Shown here piece by piece: positions 41,017 through 64,000 of a stretch of 64,000 nucleotides of DNA (position 1 is its first letter; the number at the start of each line of letters is the position of its first letter). The position numbers were made by a program, and so were the translations under genes. The DNA is from an uncultured Candidatus Saccharibacteria bacterium (GTDB lineage Bacteria > Patescibacteriota > Saccharimonadia > Saccharimonadales > AWTP1-31). Below the pieces are notes generated by a model, which saw nothing but the letters and a program-made list of their open reading frames with translations, was not told the origin of the DNA and did no database searches. The stretch lies in the NCBI GenBank assembly GCA_964409615.1, contig CAYPDT010000002.1:65226-129225 (forward strand), in the 5' to 3' direction.

Positions 41017-41091
41017 TCCCGGGTAGCTCAATGGTGGAGCAAGAAGCTGTTAACTTCGAGGTTGCCAGTTCGAGTCTGGCCCCGGGAGCCA
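41017..41091 (+). tRNA. tRNA-Asn (anticodon GUU), CCA encoded
   Basis: Manual cloverleaf: acceptor TCCCGGG/CCCGGGA, D arm GCTC-AATGGTG-GAGC, anticodon loop CTGTTAA, T arm GCCAG-TTCGAGT-CTGGC, discriminator G plus CCA. Confidence 0.9.
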
Positions 41092-41108
41092 AATGCAAAT
41101 CAACACAT

Positions 41109-41140
41109 AAAGACCGAGTTCCTATGACCGGTCTTTTTTG
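41109..41140 (+). terminator. terminator-like hairpin after tRNA-Asn
   Basis: AAAGACCG-agttcctatgac-CGGTCTTT, running into a T-tract (TTTTTT). Confidence 0.55.
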
Positions 41141-41331
41141 TTTGGTTTACCTCTGTTAAATCACCCCTAAAATGACCCAGACCGTGTAGCATTATGGTGG
41201 CTCAGCGGACATTTAAAAGACCGAGTTCCGAGACCGTACCAAACGACCTATACCTCTGTTATTTCGGTTCGTGACCTGTCGCCATCAAAATTAAACAAAA
41301 AAGAGCACAAAACTTGGGTTGTTATAAGGCT

Positions 41332-42606
41332 CTAAGCTAGGCCGATCTTGCCGCCTTTTAGGGCGAATTTGGTATGAATGCCTTGAACCAATTCAGTTAT
41401 CAATTTGGCGTTGGTCGATGACAGTACAAAGTCAGCATATGTCGCTAACGGTTGTAACTTATCTGTAGAAACGCCATGTTTTGTGAGATGAAAGAGCATT
41501 ATCTTTTGATGCTGAGCCATGTGTTTGCGGATATCGTTTGAAACTTCAATTTTATCTGCGTTTTCGATGATGTATTTTTTAATCTGCTCTTGTACATCAT
41601 GCTCATTCATATATTTTTCAGGGCAGTTATAATCTCGCTTTTTTGTGCACCTGTAGAATACATATCTCTTATTGGTCCCGTCTTTAAGAATCTTGTGTTT
41701 ATCTTCGCCAACGACACTACAGCCACAAGTACCGCATACCAGCAGACCTTTGAAGGCGAAGGTCTTTACACCCCAGCCACCTTTGTAATCGGCTCGACCC
41801 GTATGGATTTGATCGTAGAGTTCTTTGGTGATGAGCGGTTCATGCGCGCCTTTATACCAATTACCTGATTTATCTGGCCATTCAAACTCTCCATAGTAAA
41901 AAGGTGTGTTTAGTATCATGAATACTTGCGACAAGGATATGTTTTTGCCTGATCGATTCGTGCATCCGGCTTCTTTCAGCCATGCCTTTATTTCTCGTCC
42001 TGCGGCACCTTGTGCTGTTTTCTCAAATATCTGCTTAACAAATGGTGCTCTCTCGGGATCCTGCACAATATCTTTGACTCCACCAAAAGCTCGGTTCATA
42101 TAGCCAAGCGGTGCAACGCCTGGTCGCCAACCCATCTCAAGTTTGCTTTTCATGCCACGTTTTACATTAATGCTCTTATTGTCATTTTCGAGCTTTGCTT
42201 GTGAGCAAAGAATCATGAGCAGGAACTTTTCGTTTGGGTTATTTGTGAAAGTTTGTGAGTAAGTGCGTATATGCAAGAGCTTACCTTGATCCATAAGATC
42301 AACGACTGCTCCTAAGTCGCCCGCGTTTCGACTTAATCGATCAGGAGCCCACGTTAAGATTGCGTTATATTCATCATTTCTAATGCCAGCGAGCATTTCA
42401 TTATAAGTAGGCCGTTTACCCGAATCTTTAGCCGAGTGGCTTTCTTGTAATTCACAAACTACGTTGAGCCCCTCATTCTCAGCAAGTGCTCGCATCTCAT
42501 TAAGCTGCGAATCAATCGACATTGCCTGACGCTCGTCGCTCTCTGAAGATTTACGAGCATACAGGCAATATTTTAACGTCGGTTGATTGTCCAGCATGGC
42601 AAGCAC
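41332..42606 (-). CDS. large serine recombinase (integrase)
   Basis: Resolvase catalytic domain (CLYARKSSESDERQAMSIDSQ, LTWAPDRLSRN), recombinase domain, and a Cys-rich zinc-ribbon region (CGTCGCSV...YRCTKKRDYNCP). 424 aa. Confidence 0.9.
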   Translation of the reverse strand: MLAMLDNQPTLKYCLYARKSSESDERQAMSIDSQLNEMRALAENEGLNVVCELQESHSAKDSGKRPTYNEMLAGIRNDEYNAILTWAPDRLSRNAGDLGAVVDLMDQGKLLHIRTYSQTFTNNPNEKFLLMILCSQAKLENDNKSINVKRGMKSKLEMGWRPGVAPLGYMNRAFGGVKDIVQDPERAPFVKQIFEKTAQGAAGREIKAWLKEAGCTNRSGKNISLSQVFMILNTPFYYGEFEWPDKSGNWYKGAHEPLITKELYDQIHTGRADYKGGWGVKTFAFKGLLVCGTCGCSVVGEDKHKILKDGTNKRYVFYRCTKKRDYNCPEKYMNEHDVQEQIKKYIIENADKIEVSNDIRKHMAQHQKIMLFHLTKHGVSTDKLQPLATYADFVLSSTNAKLITELVQGIHTKFALKGGKIGLA

Positions 42607-42645
42607 AACAGTACCGCTGGGTCTTGAGAAAGTCTAGGCTATTAT

Positions 42646-43569
42646 CTAAAGATATTTAGGGAAAACACGCGTAAAACTATCGGCTGTTTCAACTAACCAT
42701 TTAATGAGCTCTTTTGAGTCACTTTCATCTAGAAAATCACCGTCATGAGTAACGATAATACGACTTGCTTTACGCTCTGGCAGTTCTTGCCAATCTAAAG
42801 TAAACCCAAGCTTTGCTTCGATATCGTCCTTTTTGACATACAACTTATGAAATAGGTCTTTATTGTCTGGGATATAAAGCTCCATAGCTACTTGTTGCTC
42901 TTTTGAATTTAACGTAGCACTTAGATGAGCTTGGGATGACCCAACTCTAATATTCTGCCAGTGCTGGGGGCGAGGGGCATGCCAACTCTTGACGTACTTT
43001 GCGGATTCTTTGCCGTACTCAATCATTCGCTCAAAAAACGCTTGTTGGTGAAGTTTAAGGTCGCTGATGCTGTTACCAGATGCACTTTGTTTTACTGTTT
43101 TAGCCCAGTCATTTGGCTTTGCAACAATATTAAATCTTGGAGCAGGCTTCGAGTCGCCGATTTTCCATGCCTCTATTTGTAACAGAAAGAAATTAGCGTT
43201 TTCAGTGGTATTTTCATTTAGCCAGTTAACAGCTTGCTCATGTTCTTCGCGAGCACGTTCAACTATCCATACTATGACTTCAGCTTGTAAGCCTGAAGCA
43301 TAGGTAATGATTTTTCCTAAGTGATCATGGTTTGTTGGTTCGAGTTGATTTTCAATAACAATTTTTCGGCCACTTTCATCTTCTGCCAAAATATCTACAT
43401 GAAATTGTCCAACGCCAACCTCGGTCTGCGTGTTGATAATGTCTACAGCGATCACTTCACTAAGATTTTCAATATTTTCTGGTAGTGCTAGCCACTGCGT
43501 AAAGTCGAGTGCCTCGTGTTTCCATACGTCACGTAAAGGAATTTGTACTAATTTGCTAAGTTCAATCAT
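42646..43569 (-). CDS. PD-(D/E)xK nuclease-like protein with DUF4268-like C-terminal domain
   Basis: N-terminal block GQFHVDILAEDESGRKIVIENQLEPTNHDHLGKIITYASG (D...E-x-Q nuclease-type core) as seen in NucS/DUF4268-type proteins. 307 aa. Confidence 0.65.
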   Translation of the reverse strand: MIELSKLVQIPLRDVWKHEALDFTQWLALPENIENLSEVIAVDIINTQTEVGVGQFHVDILAEDESGRKIVIENQLEPTNHDHLGKIITYASGLQAEVIVWIVERAREEHEQAVNWLNENTTENANFFLLQIEAWKIGDSKPAPRFNIVAKPNDWAKTVKQSASGNSISDLKLHQQAFFERMIEYGKESAKYVKSWHAPRPQHWQNIRVGSSQAHLSATLNSKEQQVAMELYIPDNKDLFHKLYVKKDDIEAKLGFTLDWQELPERKASRIIVTHDGDFLDESDSKELIKWLVETADSFTRVFPKYL

Positions 43570-43583
43570 AAATCTATTTTAAC

Positions 43584-44378
43584 TCAGATAGCGATATCAA
43601 GCACAAGAGGCACGTGATCACTATGCATCAGCCAGTCTTCATGTGTTCCAATTTCAAGCTTTGCATTCTGTATTAATGTCTCGGAGCCAAACACATAATC
43701 TATGTGATAACCACGCTCCGGTTGTCGATACCAAAATAGCGTCGATACAGATTCCAGTCCGTGTTCTTCGCCCGTTGTTTTGTGCCACACACTATGTTTA
43801 TCGAGTTTTCTAAGCTCTTCGATATATGTAGCCCATTGCCATTCTTTTTTGGTTTTGTGATCCCAACGAACATTATTATTCATGTCGCCAATAAATATGC
43901 CAGTATCCTTACGTAGCAGGGAGTCATAATGATCCAGTGCATTTAATAAGCCTTCGACATACGTCTGCCCAGCATCTTTATGCGCCCACATAGCAAGAAC
44001 ATCTACTGTATCTGATTCGACTGGAATGGCCCAATGAATAGTATCGTTATAATTATCAGCTACACGGAAATTATTATCAGTGAAACCAAGTACTCCCAAA
44101 CCCTTGTGCGGATTGTTACCAACCCAGTGCTTGAATATCGCATTTGTATTTTCTATGTCAGCTTTGGAACATTCTTGAAGAATCAATAAATCAGGCTTGT
44201 GCTTGAGGATTGCATTTCTTTTGTTTCGGAACGCCATGTTGCAGTTCCATGAAATAATACGCACGTTGGTCTGACAGCCTTTCCCCAGAGACTGCCATAA
44301 AAAAGTGACAGCCACGCTGGACTGTCTAGGACCCAAATAAGCATTATTCATGCCTACTCTTTTGTACGTAGCTGCCAC
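43584..44378 (-). CDS. endonuclease/exonuclease/phosphatase (EEP) family protein
   Basis: RIISWNCN, PDLLILQECS, IGDMNN, and C-terminal SDHVPLVLDI, all in EEP order. The start codon is ambiguous (44378 or 44351). Confidence 0.72.
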   Translation of the reverse strand: MAATYKRVGMNNAYLGPRQSSVAVTFLWQSLGKGCQTNVRIISWNCNMAFRNKRNAILKHKPDLLILQECSKADIENTNAIFKHWVGNNPHKGLGVLGFTDNNFRVADNYNDTIHWAIPVESDTVDVLAMWAHKDAGQTYVEGLLNALDHYDSLLRKDTGIFIGDMNNNVRWDHKTKKEWQWATYIEELRKLDKHSVWHKTTGEEHGLESVSTLFWYRQPERGYHIDYVFGSETLIQNAKLEIGTHEDWLMHSDHVPLVLDIAI

Positions 44379-44471
44379 TTTCTTGGCATGAACGTACGTA
44401 GAGTCCTCTACGGGTTAATACTTATTTAGATCCTAGACAAGTATTATTATACCGCTGTCAGATGATGAAAC

Positions 44472-44792
44472 CTAGGCCATGAGCCTACTAATATGTTCTG
44501 AAATTTGTTTTTTGACCCATTCGTAGGAATCAATGTTTTTACCGCCCACGTGCCATTCACATATTTGATCAGGCCTTAAGCCAGCCTTGCCCATATAGTT
44601 CTTACCATCTTTATAGTTGTAGATCGTAGCAACTCCGTAGGGTGTATTAATAATCCATTCAACATCAATCTTGTTATCTGAATGCATTGGTAATCGTGGC
44701 TCATTAAATAGCGCAATCAGCTGATCGTAGTGCACGTATAGATAGCCCTTGAAGCTTGTTCCAGTTCGTTTCTTGTCTAATTTGTTCATCAT
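44472..44792 (-). CDS. small hypothetical protein (phage-type)
   Basis: About 106 aa from the ATG with AAAGGA upstream. The ORF track extends to 44819. No family recognised. Confidence 0.5.
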   Translation of the reverse strand: MMNKLDKKRTGTSFKGYLYVHYDQLIALFNEPRLPMHSDNKIDVEWIINTPYGVATIYNYKDGKNYMGKAGLRPDQICEWHVGGKNIDSYEWVKKQISEHISRLMA

Positions 44793-44832
44793 AATCCTTT
44801 CAAAGCAAAGGTACCGCAAAGATTAATAAAAG

Positions 44833-46362
44833 CTAGTTCCGTTTTTTCTCCTCATCGAGGTACTTAATGCCATAAAAATGGTGCATTTCATCATCATCGC
44901 CACCTATGAATCCGAATCCAAAAGTAACTGCCCACTTCACATTAGTTTGTATATAGTTCAGACCCATCGATACAGCATCAGCTAAATCGTCATGTTTTTC
45001 GACGCCGAACCCTACCAGTTGCTGTATGATCGGTGCCACATTACGATCTTTTGGGAAATACACCATGCCTTGTTCGAATAATGAACTTGCCAATTGAAGT
45101 CGTGCACGTTTGTCGTTATATATCTTGATGCCTTTTGATTTAATATCTCGGTCGTTGAGCTGTTCAATTACAGCTGCTTGGTATTGCACCTGTTCAACAA
45201 GTACAATTGGCTCCTGTTTTGAATCTGCATTTAAAGCCTCATACAGTGCCGCGATAGTATCTAGTGTTGCGAGGTGAGTTATCTTTTTGTTAATAAATTT
45301 CTTATCAATGTAGTAGCGACGATCCTCGGGTTTGTAGCCGAATACATGAATTATGATTATCGCTGTATAGTCAGCTGTTGCGCTTTGGGATATGGCAAGA
45401 TCAACAGACAAAAATGAATTAATATATTCGTTTGCTTCTGTTTTTTCAGGAAGTTCATCATAGTACTGCATCCACCGTGCATCGATAACCTGATCTTCAT
45501 CAGGAATGATACGGAGCATATACTCACGTTCCCATGCGATTTTATTTCCAACATTCCGCCTCAGGTTGTTAATTGCTACTTTGTCAGGATATTTGCCCGG
45601 CCATAAACTAACACCTGAACGCACAATAGGCCACTCACGGTATATGCCATCAATCTCATGGTTTTCAATGCGCTCTTTGAGCCTCATCAGTAGCGAATCT
45701 TCGTGCAACAGATTACCGACTGCAATACGCTTTGTATAGGTATCACCAGCTGGAATAATTTCACTCGTATACCAGTCAAAAGTTTTGTTGCGCCCCTCAC
45801 GGGTTTTTACCGAAGCCATATCTTCAACATCATCAGCAATAATTAAGTCGGGTCGATGAGCGCCGTGGCGTATACCTCGCACACTTTGTTCGGTACTTAT
45901 TGCTGTAATTCGTGCGTTGTATTTTGGTATGTATAGTGAAGTCGAACCCCATTCTTCTCGTTGCTCAATAAACGGCCCCATATCATTGGCAAGGAGCTCA
46001 TTGCTCTCAAGCTCACGTTTTATATTCGTCAGGTGAACTCTTGCCTGATACTGTGTCTGACTGGCTATTAATACAAATTTCTTTTGTTGCCGTCCGACTA
46101 CCGCCCATATTGGGTAGCTCATGGTCAGTATGGTAGATTTTGCTGATCCACGAAAAGCCACAATCACTGCCAGTGGTAAAGACTCATCTTCGGTTATTGA
46201 AAATAGGTCACGATGCATGTCGGCAGTAGCGTGTGTTAAGTAATTCGAAAAGTAGGTAGAGAAAAACCATTGATGGCTTTGCGATGTAACTTCTGCGCGA
46301 ATCTTTTGGTCATCGAAGAGTTTTTTCTGTAGATTAGCTTGCTTCATCGGTTTCATCCTCAT
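44833..46362 (-). CDS. terminase large subunit-like protein
   Basis: ATPase motifs AFRGSAKST (Walker A-like) and PDLIIADDVED (Walker B). C-terminal RNase H-like nuclease blocks (FLSVDLAIS...ADYTAIIII, KHDDLADAVSMG). Confidence 0.8.
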   Translation of the reverse strand: MRMKPMKQANLQKKLFDDQKIRAEVTSQSHQWFFSTYFSNYLTHATADMHRDLFSITEDESLPLAVIVAFRGSAKSTILTMSYPIWAVVGRQQKKFVLIASQTQYQARVHLTNIKRELESNELLANDMGPFIEQREEWGSTSLYIPKYNARITAISTEQSVRGIRHGAHRPDLIIADDVEDMASVKTREGRNKTFDWYTSEIIPAGDTYTKRIAVGNLLHEDSLLMRLKERIENHEIDGIYREWPIVRSGVSLWPGKYPDKVAINNLRRNVGNKIAWEREYMLRIIPDEDQVIDARWMQYYDELPEKTEANEYINSFLSVDLAISQSATADYTAIIIIHVFGYKPEDRRYYIDKKFINKKITHLATLDTIAALYEALNADSKQEPIVLVEQVQYQAAVIEQLNDRDIKSKGIKIYNDKRARLQLASSLFEQGMVYFPKDRNVAPIIQQLVGFGVEKHDDLADAVSMGLNYIQTNVKWAVTFGFGFIGGDDDEMHHFYGIKYLDEEKKRN

Positions 46363-46780
46363 TTGTTAAACCGGCAAGCCGAAGCGCACGTGACACAACT
46401 TCGGTTTGCTCTGGTGTTAGTTCCTGTTGTATGGTCTGGAGCTTAGCATCTACTTCAATACGAGTTTTATATGACTTGTGATGATGCTTTAGCCAAAAGA
46501 ATATTGCCGACATGTTTTTATCTTTGATCGCAGAGATAAGCTGGCTTTCAGCCATATCATTAATTAGTCCTGCGCTATGCTCAATTGCATCATCACACTC
46601 GCTCGCAAATATCTCATCGTCTTTTCGCCATCGATAATATGTGCTTCTGGGTACGCCAGATTGTTTACAAGCAACCTCAACAATTGGTGTCTTGCGGAGC
46701 TTTTCAAGTAGCTTCTTTTTATCGGCGGTAAGATTACGGCTCATAGCTTTACTCGCTTTTGTCCGGTGAGGTTTTCCCAA
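46334..46780 (-). CDS. HTH protein, candidate terminase small subunit
   Basis: HTH CKQSGVPRSTYYRWRKDDEIF. Immediately upstream of and overlapping the TerL-like gene. 148 aa. Confidence 0.5.
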   Translation of the reverse strand: MGKPHRTKASKAMSRNLTADKKKLLEKLRKTPIVEVACKQSGVPRSTYYRWRKDDEIFASECDDAIEHSAGLINDMAESQLISAIKDKNMSAIFFWLKHHHKSYKTRIEVDAKLQTIQQELTPEQTEVVSRALRLAGLTNEDETDEAS

Positions 46781-48063
46781 CGCTTTAACGCCACCTCAGC
46801 ATAGGTGGGGCTTTTCTCCATTATGTTGCATCGGCGTTTTAGTTTGGTGCTTGCTATGAGCGTAGAGCCGCTTCCACAGAAGGGTTCGACTACGAGGTCA
46901 CCACGTTTTGTAAGTACTTTTATATAGGGTATGAGTATTTCAATTGGTTTCGTGCCAAATATGACACCCTGACCAGAATGTTTTTCATCACTAGCTTGAT
47001 AGGATATAAAGTCGGTCGGCTGGTACTTTTTACCACCCTCGTAACCCTCCCACTGGGGCTTACCACCAATTGCATACAAAGCCGTTTCATATTCTTCTTG
47101 TAACCCATCTGGCTCTTCATCGTGGTTATATTCCACCTCACCCGATGCACCGACCATCGCAATATCGTGTTTGCTGAAGAACTTATACTTAGCTGCAAAG
47201 CCTTGATGACGATTGGGTAAATGCCACACGATCATGTTTTTGACTTTCCAGTATTTCTCCATTTCTTGCCATATCACACGTAAATTTTTCCAATTTTCGT
47301 ACACAATAATTGAGTAGTCGGGCTTTGCATACTTAGCAACATTTGCCATCCATAGTTCAGTAAAGTCATCTGGTAGGACATCAGTTTCAAGATAACGGCG
47401 GTTGCGCTTTGCACCAAAGCCAGTAACTGGCTTACCGCCACGCTTTGCGTGTAGATAGTCGAGAATGTATGGAGGATCTGTCATACACATATCTGCTTGC
47501 TCTCCGTTCATAAGCTTGTCAAAATCTGCTTCAACGGTTGAGTCACCACACATTAGCCTAGAATCACCAAGCTGATAGACATCGCCTTTTTGCACAGTGA
47601 TTTTACTGATATCCAGTTTCTTCAGCTCTTTTTCGAGATCGAATGTTTCAGGTTCATCAACAACAAGGTCAAAAATTGCATCAATCTCCTCACTATCAAA
47701 GCCGATAGTGCTAAGTAATGATTCATCGAACTCTACTAACAGTTCATAATCCCAGTCACCAAGATTTTTATTAAGCCGTACGTTGAGTTCTTTTTCACGC
47801 TCAATATCGGGTATATCTACATATACGACTGGCACTTCTTTGATCCCAAGGTCTTTAGCAACCTTAAGCCTAAAGTGCCCACCTATAACTACATTCTTAC
47901 GATTCGGTGAGCTGTTGACTAAAATCGGGTCAACTAGCCCGAAGCTTTTTATGCTTTCAGTAAGTTGCGTTATTGCATCCTCGCTCCATTTGCGTGGATT
48001 GTACGGTGCGGGGTTTAGTTCTTTTACGTTTTGGTAGGTAACTACTAAGTTGTTATTCGTCAT
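46741..48063 (-). CDS. ParB-like nuclease domain fused to N6/N4 DNA methyltransferase
   Basis: ParB N-terminal blocks (LNPAPYNPRKW, GGHFRLKVAKDLG). Methyltransferase motifs DPPY (MTDPPYILD) and SAM-binding VEPFCGSGSTLIA. Confidence 0.85.
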   Translation of the reverse strand: MTNNNLVVTYQNVKELNPAPYNPRKWSEDAITQLTESIKSFGLVDPILVNSSPNRKNVVIGGHFRLKVAKDLGIKEVPVVYVDIPDIEREKELNVRLNKNLGDWDYELLVEFDESLLSTIGFDSEEIDAIFDLVVDEPETFDLEKELKKLDISKITVQKGDVYQLGDSRLMCGDSTVEADFDKLMNGEQADMCMTDPPYILDYLHAKRGGKPVTGFGAKRNRRYLETDVLPDDFTELWMANVAKYAKPDYSIIVYENWKNLRVIWQEMEKYWKVKNMIVWHLPNRHQGFAAKYKFFSKHDIAMVGASGEVEYNHDEEPDGLQEEYETALYAIGGKPQWEGYEGGKKYQPTDFISYQASDEKHSGQGVIFGTKPIEILIPYIKVLTKRGDLVVEPFCGSGSTLIASTKLKRRCNIMEKSPTYAEVALKRWENLTGQKRVKL

Positions 48064-48100
48064 GATGTTCTCCTTATTCTGAAAACATCATGACTCCTAG

Positions 48101-48835: not shown

Positions 48836-48925
48836 GCATTAATTATACCGCCAACGATGTTATTACATCTGTTTTTAAGGTATAATGTTGTGTAATATGG
48901 CGATAAAATTACAGAGTAAAAATCA

Positions 48926-54884: not shown

Positions 54885-54946
54885 GATTAGAGATTTCGTA
54901 AATCCGAAAGGAGTTACGGGGCCTAGAGAGGCTTATCTCTAAAATA

Positions 54947-57900: not shown

Positions 57901-59692
57901 ATGGTTTCAGGTAGATAACATAGACAAAGACGAAGTTAAAAGGCGTCAAGACACCATTTGGGCAATTTGGGATAACTACTACTCCCAATTACCAGCAAAG
58001 TCTAAAGAGTCTAACTCAGATAAGACTTGGCGACTATATTTATCACGGATGGACAGCCGAAAAATGAAGCTAACTACCGAGAAGAAAGACGGTCAAACGC
58101 TTATTGGATTTAGCCCAAAAATTGATCCCAAGCTAAAAGCCTTTAGTAACGCCGCGCTAAAAGAAAGCCAAGATGCAATGAAGCATTCAAGCTTAATGAT
58201 ATGGGCTACGATGAAATGGCGTGGTGACGAAAAAGTAACAGACTACCCACAATATGAGGATAACCCATCTGCGATTCTTGATGAGGTTAAAGAAATATTC
58301 AATGATCTTAAAGGTTCCAAGGAAGGTGTAGTAGATTTTATAGACAGAGCAACCCCAGCTTATTCTTGCGCCTCATTAATTCGAGATTATCAAGATACTA
58401 TGGACGAGGAACAACAAAAGTACTGTAAGGATATATTGCTCCAATATGCATTGCTACCAATGCAGGAAAATTATGACTACCAATACGGAGATGGGCTAGA
58501 AGCTGTCATAAATGTCTTGCCACTCCTGCTTGGCATTGATAGTGATGACGATCCTACTATTAAGACAATCCTATTTTTGACACTTTTTAATCTGACTACA
58601 ACTGGTTCGGGTCAGCACATGTACGATCATGCGGCATTGGCAATACTTCATAGATTATGGAAAATAGACCCTAATCCAGCAGACTCTATGTTTGTTGGTT
58701 ATCTTAAGCTTGCTCCGCTCCACGATGACTTACGCGAAGAAGTAAGAACACAGAACATTGCCAAGAAAATATATACGACTACAAATAAACAAATTACTGA
58801 TGCTTTGGTTGAAAAGTATGAAGATACAATCGAAAATGCCATTGAAGGCACACTTAAGCATAGCGATCTAAAGGACATAAAAAACTATGATATCCGTATT
58901 CTTGAAGTAGCATTTGAGATGCTTCCGTACCACACCGATAACCTTGACCACAAACTATTCCTAGATACAGTGCTTCCAGTTTTCGCTACAAAAATAATGA
59001 GCGATGACGACGATATGGACTTCTCGACTCGTTATCGATTCTTTGATAAGTACGCAAACTTTGTTCTTACATCAACCACTACGGACATCAAACGATACCT
59101 AAAACCGTTCATTGATGGTTTTGATAATCCTCGTAATATGGGTGATTTTTTCAAACAGTTTATATCAGTACAAGATAGGCTAAACCGATATGATGAATTC
59201 TGGGCTATATGGGAAACTTTTTATGATGCGATGGTCAAATTATCTAAAGACCCAAGGAATAGGCGTGATGCAAAGTCGATTATAAATGCATACCTATTTG
59301 CAGCGAATAGTTGGAAGGATGAAGCAAAAGAATGGCACTGCTTCAAAGACAGAGAGAAGAAATTCTTTGAAAAGGTATCGAATGATATGGGCCACCACAC
59401 CGCTACTCTTCATGCTGTTGCAAAACTTATTGATGGAATTGGTTCAAATTTTATCGATGATGGTATCACGTGGATTAGCGATATGATAAAAGTCAATTCA
59501 AATCTGCAGACTGAAGATCTTGAGGTTAATACTGTTTACTATCTCGAAAATATAGTTCGTCGTTTTGTGCTGAGTAATCGTCAAAAGATTCGTTCATCTG
59601 TAACTCTCAAGAATCGTCTACTCATTATTCTGGGTTTCTTGATTCAAAAAGGTTCAGTTACGGCCTACCTCACAAGAGAGGACATTTTATGA
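54947..59692 (+). CDS. 1581-aa protein: N-terminal PD-(D/E)xK-like module, P-loop NTPase, long alpha-helical C-terminal region
   Basis: Uninterrupted 4.7-kb ORF. Nuclease-like core GIETD...GWQCKYY (nt 55091-55141). Walker A GDGGTGKT (nt 55583-55606). Walker B-like CIVIDSAEK, then IIFTTRR. The remaining ~1,250 aa have no motif I recognise. Confidence 0.8.
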   Translation: MQEINWGNFNAKFNGKEQSTFQWLCYLLFCQEFEQPLGIARYANHAGIETDPIKVDDDYIGWQCKYYTTPLNKHKQDFIDSIDTAKKNHTDLTKIIFYTNQDFGQGQGSSPQYKTDIENHAKSKGVVIDWRTASYFESPFVTKENASITKHFFDLGKSVFDLINELRQHSENILGLIQADIKFGKNDIKLDRSAVTVELIKKMGDKTPVILSGDGGTGKTAIIKDLYELSISTTPIFIFKATEFNNISNVNELVKQYGDFSLADFITAYEDTEEKCIVIDSAEKLSDLNDPAVFQEFVKLLLDNKWKIIFTTRRSYLDDLKYLLVSLYRITFSSIDISDVDLNIIEELSKKYSFDLPADSRMQSLICNPFYLNEYLQNYTGVAADTTFADFKKVLWDKQIAKTTSRKDNIHIRRSECFIELAKKRANQGSFFIKSDGLDPSALQKLVEDEIVGYDDGALGYFIAHDIYEEWALEKVIEASFLKSSEPDDFYKDIGDSLPIRRAFRTWLSSKIVSDKQAVKTLISKTIGNNNVASHWQDEAIISILLSDNPESFSELLEANLLQDDAALLVKTTFLLRIACKQVDEHTLKMLGVKATSLKSLSTKPKGSGWNSIIVYINNHKEDLGLSHLNSILPLIKDWNSKNKRGSTTQNASQIALFYYEKIADDGGFGYGSRDLEKNIIETILNGATEIKDELSTIADDVISKKLTHHRDKYHELIDAMLSSSYSTVEVAQAIPIKMLQLANIFWSKDEEEEDDGYSPRIGVEGSFGITENRQAYFPASSYRTPIYMLLRFAPKETIDFILTFTNKSVITYSKSELSENEIHEVEVFIQDGLPIKQYMSNRLWEMYRGTHVSTGVLESMHMALEKWLLEYAKTASKEELEAMCIYLLKNSKSASISAVVTSVVLANPEKLFNVAVILFKTKEFFLYDTGRLLKDRSRKSDLLMLRNSYPSNDYENEFHENERIEACDDSHRTHSLENQALFYQWFQVDNIDKDEVKRRQDTIWAIWDNYYSQLPAKSKESNSDKTWRLYLSRMDSRKMKLTTEKKDGQTLIGFSPKIDPKLKAFSNAALKESQDAMKHSSLMIWATMKWRGDEKVTDYPQYEDNPSAILDEVKEIFNDLKGSKEGVVDFIDRATPAYSCASLIRDYQDTMDEEQQKYCKDILLQYALLPMQENYDYQYGDGLEAVINVLPLLLGIDSDDDPTIKTILFLTLFNLTTTGSGQHMYDHAALAILHRLWKIDPNPADSMFVGYLKLAPLHDDLREEVRTQNIAKKIYTTTNKQITDALVEKYEDTIENAIEGTLKHSDLKDIKNYDIRILEVAFEMLPYHTDNLDHKLFLDTVLPVFATKIMSDDDDMDFSTRYRFFDKYANFVLTSTTTDIKRYLKPFIDGFDNPRNMGDFFKQFISVQDRLNRYDEFWAIWETFYDAMVKLSKDPRNRRDAKSIINAYLFAANSWKDEAKEWHCFKDREKKFFEKVSNDMGHHTATLHAVAKLIDGIGSNFIDDGITWISDMIKVNSNLQTEDLEVNTVYYLENIVRRFVLSNRQKIRSSVTLKNRLLIILGFLIQKGSVTAYLTREDIL

Positions 59693-61164
59693 TGTTATCA
59701 AAGTCAGATTATATGCTTTACCTTAAGCACCCTGCGTGGCTATGGATAAAAAAGCATGCAAAAACTCTACTGCCAGCCATCGACCCATCGACGCAGGCCA
59801 TATTCGATACGGGACACGAATTCGAGCAATATGCCGAAGCCTTATTTCCCAACGGTATAACGCTAGGCTTTAGTGACTACGATGAGTACCTGTCACTGCC
59901 CGAACGCACCACGCAAGCACTTACGGAAGGCGCAAGTACTATATTTCAAGGACGCTTTGAACATGAACAGCTAACTTTTATTTGTGACATCATACAGGTA
60001 GTCGGCCACAAAGAATTAGACTTGTTTGAAATAAAGTCGAGCACAAGCGCAAAGCCTGAGCATATTACTGATCTTGCATTTCAGCTTTTTGTTTTAGAGA
60101 AATGTGGCTATATCGTAAGAAACATAGCCGTAGTTCATGTAAATAATCAGTACACACGAGATGGTTCGATTGACCCAAAGCAAATAACGGCCAAGACTGA
60201 CGTAACAGAAGCTGTGAAAGCACAAAAAGAATTAACAGAGATTAAAATTAATGAAGCACTGCAAACGGTTTCTCTTACTGAGTGTCCTGATATTTCTCCA
60301 CTATATGCAGGGCCAAAGTTCTTTGGCGAATGGTTAGAGATTTACAAACACATGAAAAGTCCGAAGTCTGGTAGTATCTTTGATCTTTGCCAATTAGACG
60401 CTCAGACGCTCCAGAATTTACAGGCAAATAATATCGCATTACTTGAAGATATCCCGTCTGATTTTGTCTTGAAACCTAAGCAAAGACTACAGGTAGAAGC
60501 ATTACGACAAGGTCACCCAACAATAAACATAGATAAAATTAAGCATTTCCTAAACACATTTGAGTATCCAATATATTTCTATGATTACGAAACTTTAAGT
60601 AGCTTAGTGCCTTACTTTGATGGACTAAAACCATACCAGCAACTCCCGTTCCAGTACTCCGTCCACATACTCGATAGTCCAAACTCCGAATTACGTCACC
60701 AAGAATTTCTCCATCGAGAGAATACAAATCCAGCGAAAGCTCTAACAGAGTCACTCATATCTCATATTGGCAGTAATGGCACAGTCATTGCATGGAACAT
60801 GAGCTTCGAGAAAAACTGCAATACTTTACTTGGGACACTACTCCCAGAACATGCAGAGTTCTACGAAAAACTTAACGATAGAATCGTTGATCTTATGGTG
60901 CCATTTTCACAAAATTGGTACGTTGATTCTGACTTTTACGGAAGTGCGTCTATTAAAAAAGTATTGCCTGTACTAGTGCCCTCACTATCACATAAAGATC
61001 TTGATATATCTGATGGTAGCTCCGCACAAAGACTTTGGATGGAAGCTATTCTTGATGGTAAAAGACCTGACGAAAAAGATAAGATACTCGATGATCTAAT
61101 CAAATACTGCAAACTCGATACTCTCGCTATGGTTGAAATATTTAGAAAGTTGCTAGCCCTATGA
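59689..61164 (+). CDS. DUF2779-family protein (Cas4-like PD-(D/E)xK N-terminus, RNase H-like exonuclease C-terminus)
   Basis: DLFEIKSSTS nuclease core. The C-terminal block YFYDYETLS...PYQQLPFQYSVHI is characteristic of DUF2779. ATGA overlap with the upstream stop. Confidence 0.72.
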   Translation: MMLSKSDYMLYLKHPAWLWIKKHAKTLLPAIDPSTQAIFDTGHEFEQYAEALFPNGITLGFSDYDEYLSLPERTTQALTEGASTIFQGRFEHEQLTFICDIIQVVGHKELDLFEIKSSTSAKPEHITDLAFQLFVLEKCGYIVRNIAVVHVNNQYTRDGSIDPKQITAKTDVTEAVKAQKELTEIKINEALQTVSLTECPDISPLYAGPKFFGEWLEIYKHMKSPKSGSIFDLCQLDAQTLQNLQANNIALLEDIPSDFVLKPKQRLQVEALRQGHPTINIDKIKHFLNTFEYPIYFYDYETLSSLVPYFDGLKPYQQLPFQYSVHILDSPNSELRHQEFLHRENTNPAKALTESLISHIGSNGTVIAWNMSFEKNCNTLLGTLLPEHAEFYEKLNDRIVDLMVPFSQNWYVDSDFYGSASIKKVLPVLVPSLSHKDLDISDGSSAQRLWMEAILDGKRPDEKDKILDDLIKYCKLDTLAMVEIFRKLLAL

Positions 61165-61586
61165 CGAATATCTACTTAGACATTGACGGAGTGTTATTGG
61201 CAAACGACCTAAACCCAGCTAACCACGCACCAGAATTTCTGAAATACGTTATAGAAAAGTTTCCTGATTCAACCTATTGGTTGACTACTCATTGTCAGGG
61301 AGATGCTAATGTACCGATACAACACATAGGGCATTTGTTTGATACCGAAACAGTCAAACTTATGAAAAAGATAAAGCCAACCAGCTGGGATCTAGCGAAG
61401 ACACGTGCCATTGATTTCTCTCAAGCATTTCTATGGTTTGATGATGATTTATTCTACGAAGAGAAGCAGTCGCTAATTGAACACGAACTATTAGATAATT
61501 GGATAGAAGTAGATTTATCAAAGAATCCTGATCAGCTGAGAAATTTCATAAACAGTTTTCCTATACCTGCAACGGTAGGAAAATAA
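61161..61586 (+). CDS. small HAD-superfamily hydrolase-like protein
   Basis: Motif I YLDIDGVLL at the N-terminus and an acidic FDDD motif near residue 95. 141 aa. ATGA overlap with the upstream gene. Confidence 0.55.
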   Translation: MTNIYLDIDGVLLANDLNPANHAPEFLKYVIEKFPDSTYWLTTHCQGDANVPIQHIGHLFDTETVKLMKKIKPTSWDLAKTRAIDFSQAFLWFDDDLFYEEKQSLIEHELLDNWIEVDLSKNPDQLRNFINSFPIPATVGK

Positions 61587-61600
61587 AGGAGGTAAATTGC

Positions 61601-63058
61601 ATGGACGAAGAACTATTTCGCAAGTTATTTGAACAAGGTTTAATTACCGATAAACCTCCTGAAATGTGGATGCCGATGAATACGAAAGACCGCAAGTGGC
61701 AGAATTACTACACTGGTCGTGGCGGTGTCACGATGCACTTAGGTGGTGGCTGGATGATTAATGTTGATACTGATGAACTAACGCAAATTGCTAGTAGTTC
61801 GGACGTAGATGAGCAACTCATAAAATCAGTCCAAGCGGTATTTGATGAGCTTGGCTACGATTATGAAACTGTAAGCGATAAGTTTGGACACGCCATAGTT
61901 GTGCGTCATAAATTCAGTATTTTGGGGAACAGAGCGCCCCTAACTCTGAAATTTAGTGAGTATGGTTTTGATCCAAAGAAAACAATGAATGATAAATTTG
62001 AGAATGAGTTACATTCCGTTACGCCAGATCACACAAAGGTTGGCGTTAATCATGTTCCTGAGTACGACGACGAAGGTGAAGAATTAGGTACTTTCGGAGA
62101 AACAGGGTTAGAGTTCACAACAGAAATAGACCTACCAATAACGGCTGATAATTTTCCAAGTTTTGTAGAAGAAAAGCGTAAAGAAATCGACATGGTACTC
62201 ACCAAACTGAAAGACTATAGGTTTAGTGATGAAACCAGCAAAGTAGAGCAAGAATTCCATGCCCTGCAAGACGCTCTTGATTCTGAAGAATATAAAAATG
62301 CCGAAGGTTCATTATTATTCCCAGTCGGAAAGGACGAATCAGGAAAGTGTGTTATTGCCGACATGCACAAGTTGCCACATATCATGGCTGGCGGGCAAAC
62401 TGGTTCAGGTAAATCAAACTTCACAGAAGGGACACTGATCCTGAGTCTTCTGCATCGCTATTCGTCGGATGATCTTAAGATACTATTGATAGATCCTAAG
62501 ATGGTGCAATTCACGCAGTATAATGGCATCCCCCACTTAGCTAGACCAGTCATAACTACAACTGAGGATTCAAAAGATGCGATGGATTGGCTATTAAAAG
62601 AAATGGAAGATCGATTCGATTTTCTTGTGGATAGTAAGACAAAGAACATCGATGAATATAATTCATCGGGTAAAGGCCACATGCCATTTGTAGTACTAAT
62701 CATTGATGAAGTTGCAGATTTAATGATGGTTGACGGCGAATACTATCAGAAATCGTTTATAAAACTCCTACAAAAGTCGGCAGCGGTTGGTATCCATATC
62801 TACATTGGTACCAGCAGGCCAAGTGAAGACGTATTACCAAGCTTACTGAGAGCAAACTTTGTGACTAAAATAGCCTTCAAGACCTCCTCGAAAGTTGATA
62901 GCGAAGCATTAATTGATGTCGGTGGGGCAGAAAATCTACTAGGTAGAGGTGATCTACTCTTTAGCTCGCTTGGTACTGTTCATCCAGTTCATTTACAAGC
63001 TCCGTACGTTTCTGACGAAGAGACTGCTCGGGTTGCAGAACAACTTAAAAATAGTTAA
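61601..63058 (+). CDS. FtsK/SpoIIIE-family DNA-translocase-like ATPase (soluble)
   Basis: AAGGAGG SD upstream. Walker A GGQTGSGKSNF, Walker B VVLIIDEVADLMM, and downstream GIHIYIGTSRPS. No TM helices in the ~250-aa N-terminal region. Confidence 0.85.
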   Translation: MDEELFRKLFEQGLITDKPPEMWMPMNTKDRKWQNYYTGRGGVTMHLGGGWMINVDTDELTQIASSSDVDEQLIKSVQAVFDELGYDYETVSDKFGHAIVVRHKFSILGNRAPLTLKFSEYGFDPKKTMNDKFENELHSVTPDHTKVGVNHVPEYDDEGEELGTFGETGLEFTTEIDLPITADNFPSFVEEKRKEIDMVLTKLKDYRFSDETSKVEQEFHALQDALDSEEYKNAEGSLLFPVGKDESGKCVIADMHKLPHIMAGGQTGSGKSNFTEGTLILSLLHRYSSDDLKILLIDPKMVQFTQYNGIPHLARPVITTTEDSKDAMDWLLKEMEDRFDFLVDSKTKNIDEYNSSGKGHMPFVVLIIDEVADLMMVDGEYYQKSFIKLLQKSAAVGIHIYIGTSRPSEDVLPSLLRANFVTKIAFKTSSKVDSEALIDVGGAENLLGRGDLLFSSLGTVHPVHLQAPYVSDEETARVAEQLKNS

Positions 63059-63111
63059 CAAAATACACTCCACTAGTGATGAGAGCGAAGTTAATATGAT
63101 AACATTACAAT

Positions 63112-63348
63112 ATGTTTGACAAGAATTTGAAAGATAAGCGAGAAAGCCTAAAACTCTCTCAACAAGATGTAGCGATTTTACTAGGTGTCAGCAGAATTAC
63201 TTACATCAAATACGAACAAGATCCTAGCTCTATGCCTTTAGGGAAGTATGAACAGCTGATGGCAGAGTTTATAAGATTGGGCGGAATTGTTACCGACGGT
63301 AAAATTAAATCGAATGTTCCTAACGGCGATGTAGATTTTGATATCTAA
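63112..63348 (+). CDS. XRE-family HTH transcriptional regulator
   Basis: LKLSQQDVAILLGVSRITYIKYEQD is a classic HTH_3 motif. 78 aa. Confidence 0.8.
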   Translation: MFDKNLKDKRESLKLSQQDVAILLGVSRITYIKYEQDPSSMPLGKYEQLMAEFIRLGGIVTDGKIKSNVPNGDVDFDI

Positions 63349-63426
63349 AGCAGATAAAAATTACCTATAATTTTCAATGTACATGACAGCCTAAACATCT
63401 CTTAAATTTGGGCGTAAAATATAAGT

Positions 63427-64000
63427 GTGTATACATACCTGCAAGAACGCCAGCATTACGAAGACCGCTACGATGACGGAACAGTAGCTAAATGCCGTTC
63501 GGGCGAACGCATCGTAAATGATACTTTCAAGATTATGGAGAAGAAGCTCACTAAAAAAGAGCTGACCGAAAGTCTGCCTGGCTGGTACTTGCTCTACAGT
63601 AAACTCTACTTTTGGTTTGTTGAATCGGCTGCTGCTGCACGAGCCGAGAATCGAGATGCCACTATCGCCAAGTGGATGGGAGAAGATCAGAAAAAAGACG
63701 ACCGCTTAGCTTCAGCGCACATAGCTGGTGGCACTTATTGCCGTAGTTGCGGTAAAGATATGCGAGTTATCAGCAAAGACTATATGCGCCGTGATAACCG
63801 CAAAGATGATGACATCCTTATCATGTTTGAATGCGTAGAGTGCAATAAGCGCATGGCTCTTTGGGAAGACGGTACGCAGTGGGAGGGAGCAAAACATGAA
63901 TGTGAGAAATGCGGTGGTAATACTGTCTCAAAAACCACCAAAGAGTTCGGTGTTATCACATGGACTGAGACCTGTGAGAAATGTAAGCACGTTAAGACTG
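63427..64000 (+). CDS. hypothetical Cys-rich (zinc-ribbon) protein, 3' end beyond the window
   Basis: The frame is open from the stop at 63415-63417 to the window edge, so it is missing from the ORF track. Candidate starts are GTG 63427 or ATG 63535. It contains three CxxC pairs (CRSCG, CVECN, CEKCG) and a fourth beginning CEKCK. Confidence 0.4.
   Translation, partial: MYTYLQERQHYEDRYDDGTVAKCRSGERIVNDTFKIMEKKLTKKELTESLPGWYLLYSKLYFWFVESAAAARAENRDATIAKWMGEDQKKDDRLASAHIAGGTYCRSCGKDMRVISKDYMRRDNRKDDDILIMFECVECNKRMALWEDGTQWEGAKHECEKCGGNTVSKTTKEFGVITWTETCEKCKHVKT

What the first reader, a model, noticed from the sequence alone, without database searches (positions are those of the whole stretch)
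41092..64000. Chimeric integrated element: serine integrase, orphan terminase, and an FtsK-type translocase
Seen: downstream of tRNA-Asn everything is accessory. The minus-strand block reads towards the tRNA: hypothetical, ParB-MTase, TerS-like, TerL-like, small ORF, EEP nuclease, DUF4268-like nuclease, serine recombinase. The divergent plus-strand block carries the RM/defence-like genes, an FtsK/SpoIIIE ATPase, an XRE regulator and a zinc-ribbon ORF. The element runs off the window. Established: actinomycete integrative conjugative elements (AICEs) move double-stranded DNA using a single FtsK-like TraB. Inference: Saccharibacteria live attached to Actinobacteria. An element combining phage packaging genes with an AICE-style translocase could therefore be a vehicle for DNA exchange within the epibiont population or even with the host.
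Basis: partly seen in the sequence, partly recalled or inferred. Interest (0 to 1): 0.55.

Follow-up and report, generated by a model that had tools for sequence, protein, structure and literature searches.

The report
Terminase-carrying serine-integrase defence island in Saccharibacteria
This is a roughly 24-kb mobile island inserted at the end of a tRNA-Asn gene in a Saccharibacteria genome; it carries phage-defence genes and its own DNA-packaging enzymes but no virus shell genes, so it probably rides in another phage's capsids rather than moving by conjugation as first proposed.

Summary
The element is real. It starts right after tRNA-Asn (41092) and ends about 1,020 bp beyond the window (equivalent position 65020). 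There, eight related loci share a sharp end, ...GTGACCTGTAYGGGGAGCCA, whose last 8 nt repeat the 3' end of the tRNA.

It is not a prophage, because no structural genes lie inside the boundaries. It is not AICE-like. The FtsK-like protein is a soluble copy of a true FtsK beta motor: 47% identical to the Saccharimonadales chromosomal FtsK, and 32 bits against NCBI's TraB model, whose cut-off is 800. It has no membrane segment and no gamma/wHTH domain. It pairs with a HAD-like gene and is absent from a compact relative of the element.

The backbone is a cassette of ParB-methylase, TerS, TerL and a large serine integrase. This cassette recurs in about 140 loci from CPR and metagenome sequences, always without portal or capsid genes, and under strong purifying selection (TerL dN/dS 0.016). 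It often faces a divergent LexA/CI-type repressor. Between the backbone genes sits swappable defence cargo: MmeI-type RM, Avs4, Thoeris, Type I RM.

My best reading is a phage-satellite-like, inducible defence island. This mechanism is inferred, not shown.

The parts
41017..41091 (+). tRNA-Asn(GTT), the integration target. Its last 8 nt, GGGAGCCA (41084-41091), form the left copy of the core repeat (attL).
   Evidence: ARAGORN. The same 8-mer ends the element at L001:13413-13420. Five independent assemblies break their contigs inside this tRNA, and L001's contig starts inside it.
41092..41331 (.). Left end of the element (P' arm). It holds a copy-like version of the tRNA's native downstream terminator hairpin, plus degenerate AGTTCC..GACC repeats.
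   Evidence: P' against the displaced native flank B': 45 of 70 identical, reached by 2 of 500 shuffles. Repeats listed.
41332..42606 (-). Large serine recombinase (integrase), reading toward the tRNA.
   Evidence: Pfam Resolvase, Recombinase and Zn_ribbon_recom. phrog_95 integrase 2e-62. Nearest NCBIfam model is CcrB, below its cut-off.
42646..44378 (-). Variable accessory slot between integrase and TerL: DUF4268 protein (42646-43569) and EEP-family nuclease/phosphatase (43584-44378).
   Evidence: Pfam. In relatives this slot is replaced by other genes or is absent; the TerL-to-Int distance ranges from 16 bp to 8.6 kb.
44472..44819 (-). 115-aa ORF of unknown function, conserved only in close relatives.
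   Evidence: No family match. Homologues in L011-L013 and L038.
44833..46362 (-). Terminase large subunit, with ATPase and nuclease motifs intact.
   Evidence: phrog_38 3e-78. Walker A, Walker B and nuclease Asp/Glu motifs are invariant across relatives. dN/dS 0.016.
46334..46780 (-). Terminase small subunit-like HTH protein.
   Evidence: phrog_4044 2e-10 and other TerS phrogs. Present in 83 of 88 loci next to TerL.
46741..48063 (-). ParB_N-fused N6/N4 DNA methyltransferase.
   Evidence: Pfam. phrog_498 5e-83. Present in 79 of 88 loci. dN/dS 0.015.
48101..48835 (-). 244-aa ORF heading the minus-strand operon, with an HTH-like C-terminus. Function unknown.
   Evidence: No family match. Homologues sit upstream of the methylase in about 14 loci.
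48926..54884 (+). Defence cargo 1: MmeI-type IIG restriction-modification enzyme (48926-51745), DEAD-box helicase (51742-53712) and T5orf172 protein (53682-54884). The three travel together as a trio.
   Evidence: Pfam. PADLOC REase_MTase_IIG 7e-275. The trio recurs in L008, L013, L017 and L095.
54947..59692 (+). Defence cargo 2: Avs4 (AVAST type 4 STAND NTPase-nuclease).
   Evidence: PADLOC Avs4 full length, 1970 bits. NCBIfam equivalog 1978 bits against a cut-off of 1500. The same slot holds Thoeris ThsB-ThsA-ThsB in L017 and L019.
59689..61164 (+). DUF2779 protein (Cas4-like PD-(D/E)XK nuclease plus predicted 3'-5' exonuclease). Its alleles are mosaic and highly divergent.
   Evidence: Pfam 3.6e-40. 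Literature: PMC13621843 and PMC3985635. 51-58% identical between elements whose FtsK is 78-94% identical, yet 99.6% in L021.
61161..63058 (+). Two-gene module: a HAD-like 141-aa protein (61161-61586; DIDGVL and DDD motifs) and a soluble FtsK-like ATPase (61601-63058). The ATPase is an orphan 220-aa N-domain joined to an FtsK beta motor, with no 4TM, alpha or gamma domain.
   Evidence: The pair occurs alone in L005/L006, and with a motor-only FtsK in L022 and L031.
63112..63348 (+). XRE-family HTH regulator of 78 aa. In some relatives it is replaced by a 505-aa protein with MerR/HTH_17, zinc-ribbon and HNH domains.
   Evidence: Pfam. Contexts.
63427..64000 (+). N-terminal 191 codons of a conserved 482-aa zinc-ribbon protein (h482) that marks the distal end of the element. 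The gene ends at window-equivalent 64875, and the element ends at 65020.
   Evidence: L001:11827-13275. 186 homologues of constant length. dN/dS 0.058. The sharp shared end 145 bp downstream is seen in 8 loci.

Best explanation
The region is a single island of about 23.9 kb (41092 to window-equivalent 65020).

Shown:
- A large serine recombinase integrated it into the 3' end of tRNA-Asn.
- Its backbone is an operon-like cassette: (h244)-ParB-methylase-TerS-TerL-[variable slot]-integrase. A zinc-ribbon gene (h482) sits at the opposite end.
- The space between holds exchangeable anti-phage cargo: MmeI-type RM with helicase and T5orf172, Avs4, DUF2779 nuclease, and the HAD-like/FtsK-like pair.

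Inferred mechanism:
- The element behaves like a phage satellite. On induction, the integrase excises the island. In many relatives a divergent LexA/CI-type S24 repressor faces the cassette, which suggests how induction is controlled.
- The island's own TerS and TerL then recognise its DNA and pump it into procapsids supplied by a co-infecting or co-resident helper phage.
- The ParB-methylase pre-methylates the DNA against restriction in the next cell.
- After injection, the integrase inserts the island at a tRNA 3' end. The island rebuilds that end, including a terminator-like hairpin.

The FtsK-like ATPase is not the transfer motor. It is a soluble FtsK-beta motor paired with a HAD phosphatase-like protein. 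It most likely works as an accessory DNA-processing or defence module, as the FtsK-like domains of DndH/SspH do.
For: Boundaries and integration:
- Eight loci share the end ...GTGACCTGTAYGGGGAGCCA and then have unrelated flanks, each opening with a terminator-like hairpin.
- The terminal 8-mer equals the last 8 nt of tRNA-Asn.
- The element's tRNA-proximal end resembles the displaced native flank: 45 of 70 identical, reached by 2 of 500 shuffles.
- In relatives the integrase is followed within 160-403 bp by tRNA-Ser, -Glu, -Gln or -Asn, always reading toward it.
- Contigs break in the tRNA in five assemblies.
- GC drops after the tRNA.

Backbone:
- In 88 loci with TerL 46-100% identical, TerS is present in 83 and the methylase in 79.
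- A same-strand serine integrase lies downstream in 29 of the 40 loci that have at least 6 kb downstream. No other family occurs in more than 14 loci, and no portal or capsid family appears.
- The same holds for 54 further IMG/VR loci. Phage-type neighbourhoods appear only at 29-34% TerL identity.

The genes are functional, not decaying:
- dN/dS is 0.016 for TerL, 0.015 for the methylase and 0.039 for TerS, with saturated dS.
- All catalytic motifs are conserved.

Inducibility: an S24 LexA/CI-like repressor lies divergent from the cassette in 12 loci, and XRE regulators are also present.

FtsK-like protein is not conjugative. It hits the SspH C-terminus (2.6e-51) and mad8 in PADLOC. It is absent from the compact element L037, which keeps h482, TerS, TerL and Int.
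Against: - No helper phage, excised circle or attP junction was found. There is no attP match in IMG/VR and no circular contig.
- No replication module or recognisable recombination directionality factor was detected.
- Known satellites encode TerS or capsid-remodelling genes, not TerS plus TerL without a capsid.
- Six relatives carry two intact TerL paralogues in tandem. No phage or known satellite does this, which hints that the cassette may do something other than classical packaging.
- h482 was seen within 10 kb of the cassette in only 5 of 49 loci with enough sequence. Its status as a backbone gene is therefore secure only for this sub-lineage.
- Within that sub-lineage the FtsK module is fixed and under purifying selection (dN/dS 0.043), so a role in the element's own life cycle cannot be excluded.
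Confidence: 0.5

Rival explanations
1. The island is a non-packaged defence island in the style of SCCmec. It arrives by natural transformation, since Saccharibacteria are competent, or by generalised transduction, and the serine recombinase merely integrates it. Under this reading the methylase-TerS-TerL cassette is itself an anti-phage or interference module, for example a terminase that cuts or mis-packages invading phage DNA. It would not be a device for the island's own transfer.
For: - The integrase is nearest to the Ccr recombinases of SCC elements.
- There is no replication gene, no identifiable excision factor and no helper phage.
- The cassette always sits amid defence genes.
- Tandem intact TerL paralogues look more like diversifying defence genes than like a packaging motor.
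- Competence of Saccharibacteria rests on my own knowledge and was not tested here.
Against: - The linkage and shared strand of TerS-TerL with the integrase, often only 16-100 bp apart, fit co-regulated excision and packaging.
- A divergent CI/LexA-type repressor fits the same picture.
- The ParB-methylase-TerS-TerL order is the normal front end of a phage packaging module (PHROG matches).
- TerL is extremely conserved (dN/dS 0.016), not diversifying.
Confidence: 0.25
2. The island is a decayed prophage. The integrase and packaging genes would be the last remnants of a Caudoviricetes prophage whose structural genes were deleted and replaced by defence islands.
For: - The genes have phage-type annotations.
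- IMG/VR classifies relatives as viral.
- Degenerate att-like repeats on both sides suggest repeated integration and decay at this tRNA.
Against: - The same capsid-less architecture is found in about 140 loci across 40-100% TerL identity.
- Purifying selection is strong on every backbone gene.
- Catalytic motifs are intact.
- The gene order, with the integrase directly downstream of TerL, is not that of a prophage.
- The element ends are sharp and conserved.
Confidence: 0.07
3. This is the first reader's model: an AICE-like or otherwise conjugative element. The FtsK-like ATPase would translocate double-stranded element DNA between attached cells, either between Saccharibacteria or to the actinobacterial host.
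For: - A tRNA-integrated element carries an FtsK-family ATPase with intact Walker A and B motifs.
- A Micromonospora plasmid-borne FtsK is 38.5% identical to the motor, so FtsK-like motors this similar do sit on actinomycete plasmids.
- The module is fixed in this sub-lineage.
Against: - The NCBIfam TraB equivalog scores 31.9 bits against a cut-off of 800.
- pIJ101 Tra matches only at 26% over 125 aa.
- The closest relatives are chromosomal FtsK beta domains.
- The protein has no TM segment, and neither does any other protein of the element. All the conjugative and chromosomal controls have one or more.
- There is no gamma/wHTH domain, and no Rep, Spd, relaxase or T4SS gene.
- The pair occurs in plain chromosomal context and is absent from the compact relative L037.
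- Every relative found is from Saccharibacteria or CPR; none is from Actinomycetota.
Confidence: 0.05

Closest known systems
Phage satellites: PICIs/SaPIs, PICMIs and PICI-like tycheposons
   Same: - Integrated at a fixed site and inducible.
- No virion genes.
- Encodes packaging specificity (TerS) and carries accessory or defence genes.
- tRNA-end integration with tandem accretion, as in tycheposons.
   Different: - Uses a large serine rather than a tyrosine integrase.
- Carries a full TerL in addition to TerS. Some relatives have two TerLs.
- No primase/replicase module and no capsid-size redirection genes were detected.
- At 24 kb it is larger than typical PICIs.
- No helper phage is known.
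- The host is a CPR bacterium.
P2/P4 defence hotspots (Rousset et al. 2022, PMC9122126)
   Same: Conserved backbone genes flank a slot in which unrelated defence systems (RM, Avs, Thoeris, CBASS) replace each other between otherwise similar elements.
   Different: The backbone genes, the integrase class and the host phylum all differ. There are at least two variable slots here: between Int and TerL, and between the methylase/h244 and the distal arm.
SCCmec-type islands (Ccr large serine recombinases)
   Same: A large serine recombinase related to CcrB inserts a cargo island at the 3' end of a conserved gene. The island has no transfer machinery of its own, and tandem or composite arrays occur at the same att site.
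   Different: SCC elements have no terminase genes. This island targets tRNA genes and carries defence cargo rather than resistance cargo.
Actinomycete integrative conjugative elements (AICEs; pSAM2, pIJ101-type Tra/TraB)
   Same: tRNA-integrated, with one FtsK/SpoIIIE-family ATPase and HTH regulators.
   Different: - The ATPase fails the TraB model.
- It lacks a membrane anchor and a C-terminal wHTH.
- No Rep, Spd or Pif module was detected.
- The host is not an actinomycete.
FtsK-like domains of defence translocases (DndH/SspH, MADS mad8)
   Same: The motor matches the PADLOC SspH C-terminal region at 2.6e-51 and mad8 at 1e-23. It sits among nucleases in a defence island.
   Different: - There are no Dnd, Ssp or MADS partner genes.
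- The protein is short (485 aa) with an orphan N-domain that has only 22 relatives among 1.84 billion representatives.
- It is paired with a HAD-like protein.

Membership tests
AICE (actinomycete integrative and conjugative element) | Site-specific recombinase integrating into a tRNA gene. | tested here: met
   Serine recombinase next to tRNA-Asn, with an 8-nt core repeat at both junctions.
AICE (actinomycete integrative and conjugative element) | TraB/Tra-type FtsK-like translocase: membrane-associated, with a C-terminal wHTH that recognises clt repeats. | tested here: not met
   NCBIfam plasmid_TraB 31.9 bits against a cut-off of 800. 26% over 125 aa to pIJ101 Tra. No TM-like segment, while the controls have them. 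The protein ends at the beta domain, with no gamma/wHTH.
AICE (actinomycete integrative and conjugative element) | Replication module (RepSA/RepAM/prim-pol) plus Spd, Kor and Pif accessory genes. | tested here: inconclusive
   No such domain was found in any ORF by Pfam, PHROGs, NCBIfam or PADLOC. Three ORFs (h244, s115, h482) have no assignable function. The h482 model has no PDB fold match.
Caudoviricetes prophage | Portal, major capsid, tail and lysis genes within the att boundaries. | tested here: not met
   None lies between 41092 and 65020. None is conserved in about 140 related loci.
PICI / SaPI-type phage satellite | Integrase, repressor, pri-rep replication module with ori, packaging gene(s), no virion genes, induction by a helper phage. 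| tested here: inconclusive
   Integrase (serine type), XRE regulators, TerS and TerL are present, and virion genes are absent. An S24 repressor is present in relatives. A pri-rep module was not detected. Helper induction cannot be tested with these tools.
Capsid-forming PICI (cf-PICI) | Own capsid, portal, protease and head-tail connector genes plus TerS/TerL. | tested here: not met
   Only TerS and TerL are present.
Large serine recombinase family | Resolvase catalytic domain, Recombinase domain and zinc beta-ribbon domain. | tested here: met
   All three Pfam domains score above their cut-offs.
FtsK/SpoIIIE DNA translocase (bona fide FtsK) | 4TM anchor, linker, alpha, beta (RecA-like motor) and gamma (KOPS-binding wHTH) domains. 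| tested here: not met
   Only the beta domain is present: PF01580 at aa 222-408, aligned to residues 356-612 of a 741-aa FtsK. 4TM, alpha and gamma domains appear in homologous chromosomal proteins but not here.
Avs4 (AVAST type 4) | Full-length match to the curated equivalog model. | tested here: met
   NCBIfam NF041815 1978 bits against a cut-off of 1500. PADLOC Avs4 covers 1-1581 of 1570 profile positions.
MmeI-type (IIG/IIL) restriction-modification enzyme | MmeI N-terminal nuclease, helicase-spacer, methyltransferase, TRD and C-terminal domains in one polypeptide. | tested here: met
   All five Pfam MmeI domains score above their cut-offs. PADLOC REase_MTase_IIG 7e-275.

The most novel reading that the evidence does not exclude
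The methylase-TerS-TerL-serine-integrase cassette defines a previously undescribed, widespread class of capsid-less mobile islands in Saccharibacteria and other CPR bacteria. If so, these would be the first phage satellites, or terminase-driven transduction platforms, reported for this radiation. They would shuttle defence systems between ultra-small genomes by hijacking helper-phage capsids. The relatives with two intact TerL paralogues might be adapted to two different helper portals.
Probability: 0.4. Interest if true: 0.75.

Novelty: new variant of a known kind. Interest (0 to 1): 0.6.

Why it matters
CPR bacteria have tiny genomes and mostly lack CRISPR, and how they acquire and exchange defence genes is poorly understood.

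A conserved, inducible packaging-plus-integration cassette flanking swappable RM, Avs4, Thoeris and CBASS cargo offers a concrete, testable vehicle for that exchange. It would also extend the phage-satellite concept to a new integrase class, a new gene set (TerS plus TerL with no capsid genes) and a new phylum.

The cassette is also a practical marker for finding defence islands and new defence candidates in CPR genomes, such as DUF2779 and the HAD/FtsK-beta pair. Finally, its serine integrases come with defined tRNA-end att sites, which may be useful as tools for the newly tractable Saccharibacteria.

Tried and rejected
- AlphaFold2 model of the FtsK-like protein. It was too poor to use (pLDDT 56.7, N-domain below 50).
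- Exhaustive search with the FtsK N-domain. Only 22 relatives were found and none was informative.
- Search for the predicted attP junction in IMG/VR: no match. Check of all 171 loci for circular-contig signatures: none.
- Search for an empty attB site among fetched loci: none.
- Search for long direct repeats of tRNA 3' ends at the far side of related elements. This was uninformative because the core is only about 8 nt.
- Literature searches on Saccharibacteria or Patescibacteria combined with terminase, serine recombinase, satellite or DUF2779 found no description of this cassette.
- I considered that the copper-resistance cluster next to some elements marks a shared att site. The orientation differs between L031 and L034, and I could not reconcile it.

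Full report
**Observation**

ARAGORN places tRNA-Asn(GTT) at 41017-41091. GC falls from about 0.46 upstream to about 0.40 downstream and stays low to the window's end.

- On the minus strand, reading toward the tRNA: a 244-aa unknown, a ParB_N-N6/N4 methylase, a TerS-like HTH protein, TerL, a 115-aa unknown, an EEP-family protein, a DUF4268 protein and a large serine recombinase.
- On the plus strand: a complete MmeI-type IIG RM enzyme, a DEAD helicase, a T5orf172 protein, a 1581-aa protein, DUF2779, a 141-aa protein, the FtsK_SpoIIIE protein, an XRE regulator and the start of a zinc-ribbon ORF.
- The 1581-aa protein is a full-length Avs4 (NCBIfam equivalog, 1978 bits against a cut-off of 1500).
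- The 141-aa protein has HAD motifs (DIDGVL...DDD).

Genes upstream of the tRNA are ordinary core genes such as SmpB, an OmpA-like protein and glycosyl hydrolases.

**Extent of the element**

A Logan contig identical to the window over 12,400 bp extends it by 2.8 kb. The zinc-ribbon ORF there is 482 aa (h482) and is followed by an APH-family kinase gene.

I compared this extension with loci from other Saccharibacteria MAGs that carry the same FtsK-like gene. Homology stops at exactly the same nucleotide in eight loci...AGTTCCGTGACCTGTAYGGGGAGCCA|. The flanks after that point are unrelated to one another, and each begins with a terminator-like hairpin.

The terminal GGGAGCCA is identical to the last 8 nt of tRNA-Asn. 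The first 70 nt of the element next to the tRNA resemble the displaced native tRNA-downstream sequence at the far end (45 of 70 identical, reached by 2 of 500 shuffles). This is what one expects if integration at the tRNA 3' end rebuilds the gene's end and its terminator.

The element therefore spans 41092 to window-equivalent 65020, about 23.9 kb, with the integrase at one end and h482 at the other.

Independent support for a strain-variable junction:
- Five separate assemblies end their contigs inside this tRNA.
- The Logan contig that carries the island begins inside it.

In related elements the integrase is followed within 160-403 bp by tRNA-Ser, -Glu, -Gln or -Asn, always reading toward it. 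Nothing resembling phage structural genes lies between the boundaries, so the "ordinary prophage" refutation does not apply.

**What is conserved**

I collected TerL relatives from IMG/VR, from metagenomes and through exact-protein contexts. I then clustered all ORFs of 88 loci and annotated 54 more.

Across 40-100% TerL identity the same cassette recurs: one or two methylases (the first fused to ParB_N), TerS, TerL, then 0-8.6 kb of variable genes, then a same-strand large serine recombinase.
- TerS was present in 83 of 88 loci and the methylase in 79.
- The integrase was present in 29 of the 40 loci with enough downstream sequence.
- No other family occurred in more than 14 loci.
- Representatives of the recurrent families turned out to be an S24 LexA/CI-type repressor, XRE regulators, Sie-like proteins, Type I RM subunits and DGR components. 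None was a portal, capsid or tail protein. The S24 repressor lies divergent from the methylase in 12 loci.

Phage-like neighbourhoods, with many small upstream genes and large ORFs after TerL, appear only at 29-34% TerL identity. Isolated phages are at most 28% identical.

The cassette genes are not decaying:
- Between the window and an element with saturated synonymous divergence, dN/dS is 0.016 for TerL, 0.015 for the methylase and 0.039 for TerS.
- Walker A, Walker B and the nuclease acidic residues are invariant.

**Cargo**

Between the cassette and the distal arm, different elements carry different defence sets:
- MmeI-RM with helicase, T5orf172 and Avs4 (window, L008).
- The same trio plus Thoeris ThsB-ThsA-ThsB (L017).
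- Type I RM plus Thoeris (L019).
- Type I RM plus YgjP (L002).
- CBASS (L037).

A second variable slot lies between TerL and the integrase. This is a defence hotspot flanked by backbone genes, as in P2/P4 (PMC9122126).

**The FtsK-like protein**

Its motor (aa 222-478) is 47% identical to the beta domain of a Saccharimonadales chromosomal FtsK (E 7e-76). It matches Pseudomonas and E. coli FtsK structures at 2e-56, against 3e-14 for the TcpA coupling protein and weaker still for EssC/EccC.

Evidence against a TraB-type role:
- Against pIJ101 Tra it aligns over only 125 aa at 26%.
- NCBI's TraB equivalog model gives 31.9 bits against a cut-off of 800.
- It lacks the 4TM, alpha and gamma domains that its chromosomal homologues carry.
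- Neither it nor any other protein of the element has a TM-like segment. pIJ101 Tra, a Micromonospora plasmid FtsK and two CPR FtsKs all do.

Its 220-aa N-domain is an orphan, with 22 relatives among 1.84 billion representatives.

It always follows the HAD-like 141-aa gene. The pair occurs in other settings too:
- Alone among housekeeping genes in L005/L006.
- With a motor-only FtsK in L022 and L031.
- Next to a helicase-nuclease and DUF2779 in L032.

The pair is absent from the compact element L037, which keeps h482, methylases, TerS, TerL and the integrase. PADLOC matches the motor to the FtsK-like C-terminus of SspH and to mad8.

I conclude that it is an accessory DNA-processing or defence module. 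It is fixed in this sub-lineage and under purifying selection (dN/dS 0.043), but it is not an AICE-type transfer protein.

**Mechanism**

Shown: site-specific integration at a tRNA 3' end by a large serine recombinase family, a conserved and selected packaging cassette without virion genes, and exchangeable defence cargo.

Inferred: the island is induced, and many relatives have a divergent LexA/CI-like repressor that could control this. It then excises, and its own TerS/TerL package it into a helper phage's procapsids. The ParB-methylase protects the DNA, and the integrase re-inserts it at a tRNA.

I give this satellite-like model about 0.5. The main rival, at about 0.25, is an SCC-like passive island whose terminase cassette is itself an interference or defence device. 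The tandem intact TerL paralogues in six relatives, the absence of a replication module and the lack of any helper or attP evidence keep that rival alive. A decayed prophage (0.07) and AICE-like conjugation (0.05) are poorly supported.

**Comparison with known systems and novelty**

The element works most like a PICI, PICMI or PICI-like tycheposon. It fails PICI membership on the replication module, and it differs in integrase class and in carrying TerL. It resembles SCC elements in its recombinase and its cargo-island logic.

I found no description of this cassette in the searchable literature. I rate it a new variant of a known kind.

**Caveats**

- The right 1 kb comes from an identical public contig, not from the window.
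- No empty site or circular form was recovered.
- h482 is secure as the distal backbone gene only for this sub-lineage.
- The taxonomic breadth of the more distant cassette loci was not established.

Noticed in passing
L132, L138, L142, L143, L144, L160 (IMG/VR loci): Six cassette elements carry two full-length TerL paralogues in tandem, 50-60% identical to each other. Both keep Walker A, Walker B and the nuclease motifs. I know of no phage or satellite with this arrangement.
   Followed up: partly
window 41017-41092; loci L024-L028; L001 contig start: Five independent assemblies end contigs inside tRNA-Asn, and the island-bearing Logan contig starts inside it. This fits population heterogeneity, with the island present, absent or different at this site.
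   Followed up: yes
window 41100-41290; L001:13430-13670 (window-equivalent 65030-65270): Degenerate copies of the element-end motif (AGTTCC..GACCTGT) and of TACCTCTGTT occur on both sides of the junctions, some of them outside the element. They may be relics of earlier integrations at this tRNA.
   Followed up: partly
L016:3825-5345; L008:16907-18184; UViGs 3300033402_000781, 3300014205_009253, 3300032737_000190: Elements occur in tandem. In L016 a second, distant serine recombinase (28% identical) abuts the GGGGAGCCA end directly. L008 has a second integrase 2.9 kb past the end. Three viral contigs carry two cassettes each.
   Followed up: partly
L031:11857-11893; L034:14139-14189; L011, L038, L040: A copper-resistance cluster (P-type ATPase, DUF305, CsoR-like) lies between tRNA-Asn and the integrase in several genomes, and the integrase overlaps the ATPase 3' end. 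In L031 the same ATPase 3' end abuts the h482 end instead. Homology between the two flanks starts about 30 bp inside the ATPase gene. I could not explain the orientation difference.
   Followed up: partly
window 54947-59692 versus L017:6351-8193 and L019:6055-7900: The Avs4 slot is occupied by a Thoeris system (ThsB, ThsA-Macro, ThsB) in otherwise collinear elements. DUF2779 alleles are mosaic: 51-58% identical in most elements, yet 99.6% in L021, whose FtsK is 94% identical.
   Followed up: yes
window 61161-61586: The 141-aa ORF before the FtsK-like gene has HAD phosphatase motifs (DIDGVL near the N-terminus and a WFDDD motif) and a weak hit to the HAD_SAK_2 domain of RNA-repair proteins. It is always paired with the FtsK-like motor.
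   Followed up: partly
window 48926-54884: The MmeI-type RM enzyme, a DEAD helicase and a T5orf172 protein travel together as a conserved trio with overlapping stop and start codons in four elements. They may form one composite system rather than three separate genes.
   Followed up: no
L001:13726-15196 (window-equivalent 65326-66796); L008:14443-16916: Just outside the right end lies an APH-family kinase gene. In L008 the same position holds an ABC-F protein plus an unrelated APH-family gene, a pairing that resembles macrolide-resistance msr/mph modules.
   Followed up: no
L053, L079, L108, L043, L109 and others: Diversity-generating retroelement genes (bAvd plus reverse transcriptase) recur as cargo between TerL and the integrase in several cassette elements.
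   Followed up: no
L002:11458-12978; L019:11458-12975; L031:8897-10408: In some elements the 78-aa XRE gene is replaced by a protein of about 505 aa with MerR/HTH_17 (excisionase-like HTH), sigma-70 region 4, several zinc ribbons and a C-terminal HNH nuclease. It is a candidate regulator or directionality factor.
   Followed up: no
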